Below are positions 16,401-19,400 of a DNA stretch of 64,000 bases, piece by piece. Numbering within the stretch: the stretch's first letter is position 1; each line of letters begins with the position of its first letter. Origin of the DNA: Anolis carolinensis (lineage: Eukaryota); assembly GCF_035594765.1 (NCBI RefSeq), contig NC_085844.1:31077923-31141922 (forward strand), given 5' to 3'. Position numbers: made by a program.

Positions 16401-19400
16401 CTGTATAGTCAGTCATAGTCAGAGCGACTAAAATTGTTGCTTTAATGATTGGGAGCACTTGTAGAATAGTCCAGTGCTGTATACTGAGATGTTAATTGTT
16501 AGCAGGTGTAGAGATGAAATAGGGCTCTCGTGGTTGCATATGAAGGAGTTACTTTTTCATTTTGAATACTTTCAAATAGTATGGCTTGAAACGACACTGT
16601 TCCAGTGTAATTAAGCTTGTTGTCATGTGTACGTTTTTGTCCACAGGTCATTTTTTGCTGTGGGTTGAACTCAGAATGGCTGTAGTCATCCGTTTACAGG
16701 GGCTTCCTGTTGTTGCGGGTCCTGCAGATATTCGCCATTTGTTCTCAGGATTGAATATTCCTGATGGAGGTGTATATATCACTGGAGGAGAAAAAGGAGA
16801 AGCTTTTGTTATATTTGAAACAGATGAAGATGCACGGCAAGCAATGAGTTATTCGGAGAGGTATATAAAAAACTCACGTATTGGGTGTTTTCTCAGCAGC
16901 AAAACAGAAATGCAGAACGTGATAGAACTCAATAGGAAAAGATTTGATCACAGTGGAAGAGAAACAATTGGATCTAGATGGATAGATTCTAGTAACTCTA
17001 GTAGCTTTTCGAATATAGTTGCATCCATGAGTAAAGGAACTGGCAGATCTGGTTATGATTCTGTGGATCCGTTTGAGGATAGGCTTCATTCAAATGGCTC
17101 TGAAAACAGCAGTACAGATCTTTCGAAATTAAGTTATAATCATCCTAGGAGTAATTTAAATAAGATAACACATAATCAATTCAAGACATCTAATTCAGAT
17201 GAATTGTACTTATTCATACGTAGTATGCCTTACACTGCAACAGAAGATGACATAATTGCTTTCTTTGATGGTTTACAAGTGGATGGTATGATCATGTTAA
17301 AAACCAATGGGGTAAACAATGGAGATGGTCTGGTGAAATTTGCTACACCGACTGATTGCACGAGAGGGTTGCAGCGTGATAGACAGTATATGCGCCACAG
17401 ATGTATAAGAATATATCGCTCTAATGAAGGGACATGGATTAGGAGAATGGGGAAAAAAGGATTACAAATGCATCAGGATTTCAGTGATGAACAGTTTTCT
17501 CATGATTTCAATAAAGAAAGACGCCCAGACTTCCAATCCTCAAGAATGCATACCCGTTCAAAGTCTCCTCCAAGGAGGGTTGTGGCACATACCCATTCAA
17601 GATCCCCTCCTAAGAAGATTGCGGCACGTACCGTTTCGAGGTCTCCCCCAAGAAGTGTTATGACACACAGCCATTCAAGGTCTATATCAAGGAGGGCTAT
17701 GGCACGCACTCATTCAAGGTCTCCACCAAGGAGGATTACAGCACGCTCTCGTTCACCTTTATCTGGTTCAAGCCGGTCTCCACCTCATAATGGGGAACAT
17801 TATATACATGTCAAAAACTTGCCATTTCCTATTGAAAAGAGAGAATTGAGAGCATTCTTTGAAGACCTAGATATACCTGACAGTCATATTACATTCCTTA
17901 AGATACCTGACAATAGACCAAACAAAGATGCAGTTGTGATGTTCAGATCAATGAGAGACTATTATTCTGCACTAGGTTATCACAAGTACCCTCTTCGTGG
18001 GCAAGAAATTTTACTTTTCCCCATTCCTAAAGAAGCAGTGATGCAGCTTGCTGGATTTTCTGAAAATGAAAAATCCCCAGAAAGATATCACATTGCAAAC
18101 GAGAAAGGTGACTGGGATAGATATTCTGATCCAAAGACATGTGTGTATGTAAGAAACTTTCCATATGATGTGACAAAACGTGAAATCCACACGTTTTTTG
18201 CAGGATTTCATATTAACAATTATGACATTCATTTGCTTTACGATGACAAAGGAATTGGACTGGGAGAAACACTGGTCAAGTTCAGAACTGAAGATGATGC
18301 TCGGAAAGCTGAAAACTTAAATCGCCGTCGGTTTTTGGGGACAGAGGTGCTTTTGAGATGTATATCTGAGAAGCAAATGAAAGAGTTTGGTGTTAATGTT
18401 CCACCAGTGTCAGATGGAAAGATGCAGGATCATATCCGTTCAGATGAAAGAGGTCAACAAGGGAACCGAAAGCATCCATCTGATTATAAACATCCACCTA
18501 GTGATCTTATCAGCACATCTGATAATTTTAAAGATTCTGCTCCATTTACAGAGTTTGGTGAAGATGTTCGTGGAAATTTTCCAGGTGGACGCTTCATGTC
18601 AGATTCTAATGTCAGTGGTAGTTCAAATTGCTTCACTCTGATTAAATTAAAGAATATACCATTTCGAGCAACACCAAATGAAATTCTGGACTTCTTTCAT
18701 GGGTATAAGATTATTCCACAATCTCTTTCAATCCAGCACAACCAATATGGATTGCCTTCTGGTGAAGCTGTTATCGCCCTAGTAAATTATAATGAAGCCA
18801 TGGCAGTTGTTAATGAATTAAATGATAGGCCAATCGGCCAACGCAAAATTAGATTAACCTTGGTATAGATAAAAAGATGGCTTGAAAATATTTGCATTGT
18901 TAATGTTGAGAAATGACATTTTCAAGTAGAAGTTTACTATTTGTAAATACTTTTGACTGGTTTTAAAATTTAGGCCACTATTGTGTGGGATTTTATTAGA
19001 GACTACTGGATCACCTTGGTAGTTCATGAAAACATGACTTTGAAAGTATTTTGTTTTTTATCCCATAACCGCATGAAGATGTCTAATTTGTCTTTATTAA
19101 TTCAATATAGCTGCACTTAGAGCTAGAAATTATGTTCTTCTGTGTATGTTAACAAGAAGACCCACCGTTTTTCTTGAATTCTTGTCCATTATTATATTCA
19201 GTGGTATTTTGAGTATCTTTTTCATGCTGGTTCAGCATTTCTTTTAAAATAAAAATATATCTATTGAAAATTGTGCTTATTTTTATTTGGTACAGTCTGG
19301 ACACTTAAGAACTTACCTTGCTTAATAATGTGTTATTAAGATGTTATGTAATGTATGTGTGATTTTTATGATTGGAAACCGCCCTGAGTCCCGGGAGATA

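What the first reader, a model, noticed from the sequence alone, without database searches (positions are those of the whole stretch)
17400..18868. Coding sequence is about 9-fold more diverged than neighbouring non-coding DNA between units
Manual count: ~20 differences in ~9.55 kb of non-coding DNA (7120-16675 vs 21380-30933, ~0.2%), 1 difference in the first ~725 nt of CDS, then 27 in the last ~1470 nt (~1.8%). Overall there are 19 nonsynonymous and 9 synonymous changes. The step at ~17400 / 31660 points to a recombination or conversion boundary inside the CDS. The ratio suggests dN/dS near 0.7: relaxed or diversifying, but not proof of positive selection.
Basis: seen in the sequence. Interest (0 to 1): 0.7.

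Follow-up and report, generated by a model that had tools for sequence, protein, structure and literature searches.

The report
Gene-conversion patch in duplicated lizard gene
Two almost identical tandem copies of a green-anole RBM12B-like gene differ sharply only in a 2-kb patch with a different ancestry, most likely copied in from other copies of the gene; this is an ordinary result of recombination in gene arrays, not selection on the protein.

Summary
Units B and C differ by 20 events in 7120-16675, 1 synonymous change in the first 726 nt of CDS, and 27 changes (19 replacement, 8 silent) in the last 1467 nt.

The contrast is positional, not coding versus non-coding. The divergent tract runs from 17403 past the stop codon (18868) to a 363-nt indel at 19404/19405, with the same 1.8% divergence in its non-coding part. 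Identity then returns, with 1 difference in 944 nt.

The window is from Anolis carolinensis or a very close relative, not human. It holds at least three tandem RBM12B-like genes.

The partial third copy A shows a switch of genealogy:
- Outside the tract B=C and A is 3.5% away.
- Inside it C groups with A (0.80%) and B is the outlier (1.55-1.65%).

Silent sites follow the same pattern. The best reading is a mosaic made by ectopic gene conversion among array members. It needs at least two events and a donor outside the window.

dN/dS is 0.58-0.66, and no branch is significantly above 1. This is a known kind of event in a newly described locus, of modest interest.

The parts
3..1931 (+). Copy A: 3' 642 codons plus stop of an RBM12B-like CDS, cut by the window start
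   Evidence: Open frame. BLASTN identity is 98.7% to C 31199-34001 and 97.0% to B 16941-19510. It carries one in-frame 3-nt insertion relative to B and C.
6342..20429 (+). Unit B of the tandem array. It includes a CpG island (about 12501-13500), a splice acceptor at 16646/16647 and a single coding exon.
   Evidence: Self-BLAST: 6342-19510 matches 20602-33787 at 99.33% over 13,191 columns. CpG observed/expected is 0.79-0.97 at GC 0.53-0.59. A pyrimidine tract plus 'cag|G' lies 29 nt before the ATG. The promoter and exon roles are inferred.
16676..18868 (+). CDS of copy B (730 aa plus stop), RBM12B-like
   Evidence: Translation. Pfam RRM_1 E = 2e-29. 98% identical to an Anolis carolinensis protein, and full-length hits are named RBM12B.
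17403..19404 (+). Divergent tract in B: codons 243-730 plus 536 nt of 3' flank
   Evidence: Maximum chi-square test. Site patterns are 24 B-odd, 9 C-odd and 7 A-odd. The 3' edge is structural.
20430..34987 (+). Unit C of the tandem array. The B-to-C junction at 20430 lacks the spacer found after A and after C.
30934..33126 (+). CDS of copy C (730 aa plus stop)
31661..34043 (+). The same tract in C. It includes the 363 nt (33681-34043) that A shares in part and B lacks.
463..2807 (+). The tract's counterpart in copy A, where A is close to C
   Evidence: for coordinates. A-C divergence is 0.80% inside the tract against 3.5% outside it.
33571..33609 (+). 19-nt unit present twice in C and in A (2377-2415) but once in B (at 19313): an indel that groups A with C
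19405..20348 (+). Region III: identity between B and C returns (matches C 34044-34987)
   Evidence: 99.9% over 944 nt. 29 of 30 variable sites have A as the odd copy.
38815..39761 (+). Terminal partial unit: a copy of the first ~950 nt of a unit, which ends the array
   Evidence: 98.5% identical to 20430-21379 and 97.9% to 6342-7119.

Best explanation
The window carries a tandem array of at least three self-contained RBM12B-like genes of Anolis carolinensis or a very close relative. Units B and C are a very young tandem duplicate, with 0.17% substitution divergence over about 12 kb.

A patch of 2.0 kb in B (2.4 kb in C) has a different ancestry. It covers the 3' two-thirds of the single coding exon plus about 0.54 kb of 3' flank. 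Inside it C resembles the older copy A, and B carries a third, more distant haplotype.

This is the footprint of ectopic (non-allelic) gene conversion, or an equivalent short double exchange, among members of the array.
- Shown: the step in divergence, its two edges, the switch of genealogy, and equal divergence at silent, non-coding and replacement sites.
- Inferred: the mechanism (conversion), that at least two events occurred, and that at least one donor lies outside the window.
- Unresolved: the direction, that is, whether B's or C's tract was overwritten.

The protein family as a whole evolves under weak constraint in this lineage. That is why the imported differences are mostly replacements.
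For: 1. Step in divergence with two edges: 33 of 1797 inside against 21 of 12,205 outside; 0 of 300 permutations reached the observed chi-square.

2. Genealogy switch, using copy A over 86 variable sites:
- 16 of 16 sites in region I (B 16941-17402) have A as the odd copy.
- The tract has 24 B-odd, 9 C-odd and 7 A-odd sites.
- 29 of 30 sites in region III have A as the odd copy.
- Fisher p = 8e-16.
- The site order shows 14 switches; 0 of 10,000 shuffles gave that few. The longest B=C run is 17, reached in 20 of 10,000 shuffles.

3. Two indels (19 nt and 363 nt) also group A with C against B.

4. Not selection:
- Inside the tract B-C pS is 2.5%, pN is 1.7% and the non-coding flank is 1.8%.
- A-B silent divergence falls from 4.2% in region I to 1.3% in the tract, so silent sites share the altered history.

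5. Not random consensus error:
- At 24 of the 33 B/C-different sites covered by A, C's base is also A's base.
- 8 of B's 17 branch-specific replacement residues also occur in an A. carolinensis database protein, P0004, that the window does not encode exactly.

6. More haplotypes than the three in the window exist:
- P0004 matches B at 9 and C at 10 of the 19 B/C replacement sites.
- P0005 is a fused model of two further copies.

7. One event among A, B and C cannot fit:
- If A had converted C after the B/C duplication, 3.4 or fewer A-C differences are expected; 16 are seen (Poisson 6e-7).
- A-B would then be about 70 differences; 31 are seen (1e-7).
Against: - No donor is in the window. The nearest pair inside the tract (A-C) still differs by 0.80%.
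- A tract of 2.0-2.4 kb is long. Passages of a review (PMC3924818) put mean interlocus tract lengths at 50 to several hundred bp, so overlapping events or another mechanism may be involved.
- The 5' edge is not perfectly clean. Three A-odd sites (17408, 17409, 17423) lie just inside it.
- The replacement:silent ratio differs between the B branch (17:3) and the C branch (2:5), Fisher p = 0.011. Conversion alone does not explain this.
- No reads were available, so a chimeric consensus cannot be excluded.
Confidence: 0.8

Rival explanations
1. The tract is the old, unconverted part. B and C would be older duplicates whose flanks (11 kb upstream and about 1 kb downstream) were recently homogenised by long conversion or unequal crossing-over, and the 2-kb patch escaped.
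For: B-C divergence in the tract (1.65%) lies between the young value (0.17%) and the A-versus-B/C value (3.5%). The B-to-C junction is a distinct join without the spacer, so array remodelling has occurred here.
Against: If the tract had simply escaped exchange, A-B and A-C inside it should be at least the 3.5% seen in the flanks. They are 1.55% and 0.80%, and silent sites agree, so the tract has itself exchanged with the A lineage. Homogenising 11 kb while skipping 2 kb needs two separate long events.
Confidence: 0.1
2. Assembly artefact. B and C would be two haplotypes of one unit laid in tandem, or the consensus of one unit would have been polished with reads from another paralogue.
For: The units are 99.8% identical outside the tract, a level at which assemblers can err. 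All 5 indels outside the tract are homopolymer-length changes, typical of consensus error. No reads could be examined.
Against: - There is no gap: 0 N in the window.
- B and C have different downstream junctions.
- Variant bases are shared with copy A, or at protein level with P0004, and are not random.
- The transition:transversion ratio in the tract is 22:11, as for real substitutions.
Confidence: 0.05
3. Positive or diversifying selection on the C-terminal RRM-coding part accelerated divergence of the coding sequence in place.
For: The B branch has 17 replacement to 3 silent changes, about 1.6 times the neutral ratio. Several changes hit otherwise conserved positions (N381, V504, Q505).
Against: - Silent sites and the non-coding flank are equally diverged.
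- The tract continues 536 nt past the stop codon.
- The 17:3 ratio is not different from neutrality (binomial p = 0.34).
- About 33 substitutions in 2 kb cannot arise in place while the 12 kb of flanks collect 21.
Confidence: 0.03
4. RNA-mediated conversion. A 5'-truncated cDNA of a paralogue's mRNA would have recombined with the gene, giving a tract that starts inside the exon and ends near the transcript's 3' end.
For: The tract lies wholly within exon plus 3' flank, and its 3' edge sits just after an AATAAA in a repeat tail. A LINE with endonuclease and reverse-transcriptase remnants is in the window.
Against: There is no poly(A) at the 3' edge. The tract crosses no intron, so the diagnostic feature (intron loss) cannot apply. 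The AATAAA belongs to an interspersed-repeat tail. The true polyadenylation site is unknown.
Confidence: 0.02

Closest known systems
Ectopic (interlocus) gene conversion between tandem paralogues, as reviewed in PMC3924818 (passages read). The classic case recalled from memory is the human fetal globin pair HBG1/HBG2.
   Same: Abrupt edges. A genealogy that differs between the tract and its flanks. Silent and non-coding sites affected like replacement sites. One edge lies at simple or repeated sequence with an indel.
   Different: The patch here is more diverged than its surroundings, because the surrounding duplication is younger than the donor lineage. The donor is not in view. The tract (2.0-2.4 kb) is longer than the mean lengths the review gives.
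Vertebrate RBM12B (RNA-binding motif protein 12B)
   Same: Five RRM-like folds. The invariant N-terminus (M1-L10, except Q8, which is nearly invariant). Colinear with full-length homologues. Placed next to Anolis sagrei RBM12B in the tree.
   Different: - Present as at least three tandem copies.
- Only 76% identical to the A. sagrei protein.
- Changes at positions that are invariant or nearly so elsewhere: N381K in A and C, V504I in B, Q505H in B and Q505R in C.
Lineage-specific RBM12B duplicates elsewhere: several 'RBM12B-like' proteins on one contig in Sceloporus undulatus, Phrynosoma, Paroedura and Ascaphus (names and contig lengths as listed); mouse Rbm12b1/Rbm12b2 (recalled, not checked)
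   Same: The same gene is duplicated repeatedly. In the tree the Sceloporus, Paroedura and anole copies group within their own lineage.
   Different: No DNA of those loci was available, so whether they show conversion mosaics is unknown.
Gene conversion in the green anole protocadherin cluster (PMC2764143; only the search listing and the start of the abstract were seen)
   Same: Same species, a tandem gene cluster, and gene conversion mentioned in the text (11 occurrences in the listing).
   Different: A different gene family. I did not read the paper's details.

Membership tests
RBM12B protein family | Several RRM domains | tested here: met
   Pfam RRM_1 E = 2.1e-29, 2 stretches, best 490-558. 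The AlphaFold2 model shows five beta-alpha-beta-beta-alpha-beta folds at about 1-92, 173-272, 372-460, 484-577 and 651-730, separated by low-confidence linkers.
RBM12B protein family | Full-length similarity to proteins named RBM12B, and placement among them in a tree | tested here: met
   482 hits at E <= 1e-20, with squamate RBM12B at 100% query coverage. The clade of the window copies plus A. sagrei has SH-aLRT 100, inside the iguanian proteins.
RBM12B protein family | Conserved N-terminal RRM beginning MAVVIRL | tested here: met
   M1 to L10 are invariant, except Q8, which is nearly invariant, in 48 aligned sequences including copy B.
RBM12B protein family | Conserved gene neighbourhood (synteny) | not tested
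   Ten ORFs from 45-62 kb gave no Pfam match. No eukaryotic genome collection was available.
Ectopic gene-conversion tract | Significant change of pairwise divergence at defined breakpoints | tested here: met
   Maximum chi-square 112.5; 0 of 300 permutations reached it.
Ectopic gene-conversion tract | Genealogy of the tract differs from that of the flanks relative to a third paralogue | tested here: met
   Site patterns (Fisher p = 8e-16). Permutation of site order.
Ectopic gene-conversion tract | Silent and non-coding sites affected like replacement sites | tested here: met
   pS 2.5%, pN 1.7% and 3' flank 1.8% inside the tract.
Ectopic gene-conversion tract | An identifiable donor copy nearly identical to the converted tract | tested here: not met
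   Within the window the closest pair in the tract (A-C) differs at 16 of 2002 sites. Other array units could not be fetched.
Ectopic gene-conversion tract | Non-reciprocal transfer (donor unchanged) | not testable with these tools
   This needs the donor and an ancestral or population sample.
Positively selected gene | dN/dS significantly above 1 on some branch or set of sites | tested here: not met
   B branch 17 replacement to 3 silent changes, binomial p = 0.34 against neutrality. C branch 2:5. Pairwise 0.37-1.60. No codon-model test with outgroup DNA was possible.

The most novel reading that the evidence does not exclude
The anole RBM12B array may be a fast-evolving, lineage-specifically amplified family in which conversion shuffles blocks of variant RRM-coding sequence among copies. 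That would create combinations of RNA- or partner-binding surfaces under diversifying selection.

One possible setting is a conflict with transposable elements. Human RBM12B is an RNA-independent partner of SAFB1, and the source paper's title concerns the somatic suppression of autonomous transposons (PMC10901741, passages read).

Observations in line with this:
- 76% identity to A. sagrei.
- Long iguanian branches in the tree.
- Replacement:silent ratios near or above neutral on three of four branches.
- Changes at an otherwise invariant RNP2 asparagine.
- A database protein (P0004) that mixes B-type and C-type residues.

None of this separates diversifying selection from relaxed constraint.
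Probability: 0.1. Interest if true: 0.55.

Novelty: new member of a known kind. Interest (0 to 1): 0.3.

Why it matters
The case shows how a patch of high divergence inside a near-identical duplicate can look like coding-specific acceleration. It is in fact imported ancestry, and a third paralogue is enough to tell the two apart.

For annotation, it flags that the anole RBM12B locus is a multi-copy array. Database gene models there are fused (P0005) or start at an upstream ATG that probably lies in the intron (P0004).

For biology, it documents weak constraint and repeated duplication of an otherwise conserved RNA-binding protein in iguanian lizards. That may merit a proper codon-model and expression study.

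It opens no new kind of mechanism.

Tried and rejected
- Listing the 8 members of P0004's 90% cluster, to find further anole copies and possible donors: the database was switched off, so this stayed unchecked.
- Rfam over the whole window: 0 matches at gathering scores.
- tRNA scan: 0 genes.
- Pfam on 15 non-RBM12B ORFs from the units and the downstream region: 0 matches. Of the 5 ORFs of the LINE remnant, 2 matched.
- Literature:
  - 'RBM12B' plus 'Anolis': 0 papers.
  - A six-term search with at least two terms required: the 20 papers listed had no occurrence of RBM12B.
  - 'RBM12B' alone: 114 papers, and none of the 25 listed concerns its duplication or evolution, judging by title and start of abstract.
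- Base-composition bias of the B-specific changes (weak-to-strong against strong-to-weak) was counted by eye. It showed no clear skew and was not pursued.
- Structural mapping: 13 of the 19 replaced residues lie in confidently folded segments and 6 in low-confidence linkers. Linkers make up 196 of the 488 tract codons, so about 7.6 would be expected there. There is no enrichment either way, so this does not tell relaxed from diversifying selection.
Only the single coding exon was used, and the upstream non-coding exon is inferred from the CpG island and the acceptor site alone.

Full report
**What the window is.** The 64,000-nt window has no N. Its only long ORFs are three RBM12B-like frames: 3-1931 (cut by the window start), 16586-18868 and 30844-33126. 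Read from the conserved start MAVVIRL, the CDS is 16676-18868 in copy B and 30934-33126 in copy C, 730 codons plus stop.
- The best database hit is an Anolis carolinensis protein at 98% identity.
- The A. sagrei RBM12B is only 76% identical.
- Other squamate RBM12B proteins align over 100% of the query.

I therefore take the contig to be green anole or a very close relative, not human. The CDS is one uninterrupted exon, so no spliced model had to be joined and none was. Only that exon was searched.

**Architecture.** Self-BLAST shows a tandem array.
- A is partial (1 to about 4036).
- B and C match as 6342-19510 to 20602-33787, 99.33% over 13,191 columns.
- A terminal partial unit (38815-39761) is 98.5% identical to 20430-21379.

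Each unit has a CpG island about 3.2 kb upstream of the coding exon (B 12501-13500). Each also has an acceptor-like site (pyrimidine tract, 'cag|G') 29 nt before the ATG. Each unit thus looks like a complete gene; this is inferred, as I have no expression data. After A and after C lies a 2-4 kb spacer with separate repeat insertions, but the B-to-C junction at 20430 lacks it. The B/C pair therefore came from its own, later event.

**Checking the observation.**
- 7120-16675 has 20 difference events, 15 substitutions and 5 indels. All 5 indels are homopolymer-length changes.
- The CDS has 28 codon differences, 19 replacement and 9 silent. One lies in the first 726 nt and 27 in the last 1467.
- Nei-Gojobori dN/dS is 0.58 for the whole CDS and 0.66 for the 3' part.
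- In 500-column windows, the four from 17346 to 19346 hold 9, 10, 7 and 7 substitutions. The other 24 windows hold 0-4.
- The best two-breakpoint partition is 17403-19200, with 33 of 1797 against 21 of 12,205. None of 300 permutations reached its chi-square of 112.5.

**The tract is positional, not 'coding'.** The first 242 codons are as alike as the non-coding DNA. The tract also runs past the stop codon.
- 18869-19200 has 6 substitutions and a 1-nt indel in 332 nt, or 1.8%, the same as the 27 of 1466 in the coding part.
- B then has one copy of a 19-nt unit that A and C have twice.
- B also lacks 363 nt that C has (33681-34043) and that A shares in part.
- Directly after that indel, B 19405-20348 matches C 34044-34987 with 1 difference in 944 nt.
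- The 106 nt after the indel occur twice in C. The first copy is A-like and the second is identical to B's single copy.

The tract is thus 17403-19404 in B and 31661-34043 in C. It is bounded on both sides, and its 3' edge lies at a structural difference in the tail of an interspersed repeat.

**The third copy decides the reading.** I aligned A with B and C piecewise and classed each variable site by which copy is the odd one.

| Region (B coordinates) | A odd | B odd | C odd | A-B | A-C | B-C |
|---|---|---|---|---|---|---|
| I (16941-17402, still CDS) | 16 | 0 | 0 | 3.46% | 3.46% | 0 |
| Tract (17403-19404) | 7 | 24 | 9 | 1.55% | 0.80% | 1.65% |
| III (19510-20348) | 29 | 0 | 1 | 3.5% | 3.6% | 0.12% |

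- Fisher p = 8e-16 for A-odd against other patterns, inside against outside the tract.
- The site order has only 14 switches, and 0 of 10,000 shuffles gave that few.
- Silent sites behave the same way. A-B pS is 4.2% in region I and 1.3% in the tract, and B-C pS is 0 and 2.5%.

So all three pairwise relationships change inside the tract, at sites that selection on the protein does not see. That is what a mosaic made by exchange between paralogues looks like.

**How many events, and which way.** One event among the three visible copies does not fit.
- Had A converted C after the B/C duplication, at most about 3.4 A-C differences are expected; 16 are seen (Poisson 6e-7).
- A-B would remain about 70 differences; 31 are seen (1e-7).

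At least two exchanges are needed, with at least one donor outside the window. Such copies exist.
- P0004, from A. carolinensis, differs from C at 11 and from B at 12 of 747 residues. It carries B's residue at 9 and C's at 10 of the 19 B/C replacement sites.
- P0005 is a fused model of two further copies. Its linking exons match the unit's upstream DNA only at 50-96%.

Which tract was overwritten is open. B is the outlier, with 24 of 40 variable sites plus both indels. Against A. sagrei and eight other squamates, B's residue is the derived one at 9 replacement sites (243, 256, 314, 451, 504, 547, 590, 605, 682). The residue shared by A and C is derived at 3 (342, 381, 631), C's own at 252, and the rest are ambiguous.

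**Selection.** By parsimony on the three copies, replacement:silent counts are as follows.
- B branch: 17:3.
- C branch: 2:5.
- A branch in the tract: 6:1.
- A versus B/C in region I: 12:4.

The neutral expectation is about 3.6:1. The B branch is not above it (binomial p = 0.34). The C branch is below it (p = 0.007), and the two differ (Fisher p = 0.011). Between A and B/C, coding region I (3.46%) is as diverged as non-coding region III (3.5%).

Some changes hit conserved positions.
- N381 is invariant in the 48 aligned RBM12B proteins but is K in A, C and P0004.
- V504 and Q505 are at least 90% conserved; B has I and H, and C has V and R.

In the AlphaFold2 model (mean pLDDT 67.8; five confident RRM-like folds with disordered linkers), 13 of the 19 replaced residues lie in folded parts and 6 in linkers. 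That is roughly in proportion to length. In the protein tree the anole copies form one clade beside A. sagrei, on long branches. B has a terminal branch of 0.015 against 0.0014 for C (28 proteins chosen from the 120 listed plus the window copies, quick search).

All this fits weak constraint on the family. It does not show positive selection.

**What speaks against the reading.**
- No donor is in view.
- The tract is long compared with the mean interlocus tract lengths (50 to several hundred bp) given in passages of PMC3924818.
- Three A-odd sites lie just inside the 5' edge.
- The branch heterogeneity in replacement:silent ratio is unexplained.
- Without reads, a chimeric consensus or a falsely duplicated haplotype cannot be ruled out. 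The absence of gaps, the different junctions of B and C, the sharing of variant bases with A and P0004, and a 22:11 transition:transversion ratio all argue against it.

**Known or new.** Ectopic conversion in tandem gene arrays is textbook. A search listing shows it discussed for the anole protocadherin cluster (PMC2764143, listing only). I found no paper holding both 'RBM12B' and 'Anolis', and none of the 25 listed RBM12B papers concerns its duplication. Passages of PMC10901741 report human RBM12B as an RNA-independent partner of SAFB1, which I use only for the speculative reading. The mouse Rbm12b1/Rbm12b2 pair and the human fetal globin example are recalled, not checked.

**What stayed unchecked.**
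- The members of P0004's cluster.
- All other units of the array, and any outgroup DNA, because no eukaryotic DNA collection was available.
- Reads and expression data.
- Supplements of papers were not needed.

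Noticed in passing
window 46300-49550 (+): A run of broken ORFs in an A-rich stretch. One matches an endonuclease domain (Exo_endo_phos_2, E = 2e-7) and one a reverse transcriptase (RVT_1, E = 2e-18). This is a decayed non-LTR retrotransposon.
   Followed up: partly
window 4221-4539, 8844-9058, 23103-23317, 35947-36269, 51542-51864 (-), 53356-53673, 62026-62349: An interspersed repeat of about 215-320 nt at 80-93% identity, present inside the units and in the flanks. It is SINE-like by size, but ARAGORN finds no tRNA-like part.
   Followed up: partly
window 10154-10578 vs 11753-12177 (and 24413-24837 vs 26011-26434): Inverted copies of about 425 nt at 79% identity in each unit. 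They flank a purine-rich microsatellite block at 11007-11242.
   Followed up: no
window 17549-17738, 31807-31992, 609-794: A 39-nt coding tandem repeat, 4.8-4.9 copies at about 70% match, encoding 13-residue Ser/Arg/Pro-rich units in the disordered linker. Copy number is about the same in A, B and C. It lies inside the tract but not at an edge.
   Followed up: partly
window 17816-17818 (codon 381) and its counterparts in A and C: The asparagine in the first strand of the third RRM is invariant in the 48 aligned RBM12B proteins, which include copy B. It is lysine in copies A and C and in P0004.
   Followed up: partly
window 4907-5593 vs 34988-35663: An element of about 680 nt, AT-rich with microsatellites, inserted in opposite orientations at different places in the spacer after A and after C (80% identity). 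These look like independent insertions of one repeat family.
   Followed up: no
window 20349-20601: The B-to-C junction joins the end of region III directly to sequence that, after C, lies about 3 kb further on (38815-38986). The spacer present after A and after C is missing.
   Followed up: partly
window 16625-16675: Database model P0004 starts at an upstream in-frame ATG, 17 codons before the conserved start. That ATG lies upstream of the acceptor-like site at 16646/16647, so the extension is probably an annotation artefact. This is an inference.
   Followed up: no
P0005 (database protein, not encoded exactly by the window): A 984-residue model that fuses two RBM12B-like copies through short exons. 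These exons match the unit's upstream DNA at 10371-10836 and 13063-13866. It is evidence of further array units or another haplotype.
   Followed up: partly
window 18011-18316 (-), 32269-32574 (-), 1074-1379 (-): A 101-codon stop-to-stop frame antisense to the CDS, kept in all three copies. It is probably chance.
   Followed up: no
window 9501-10000 (and 24001-24500): A second CpG-rich segment (GC 0.54-0.60, observed/expected 0.64-0.68) about 3 kb upstream of the main CpG island in each unit.
   Followed up: no
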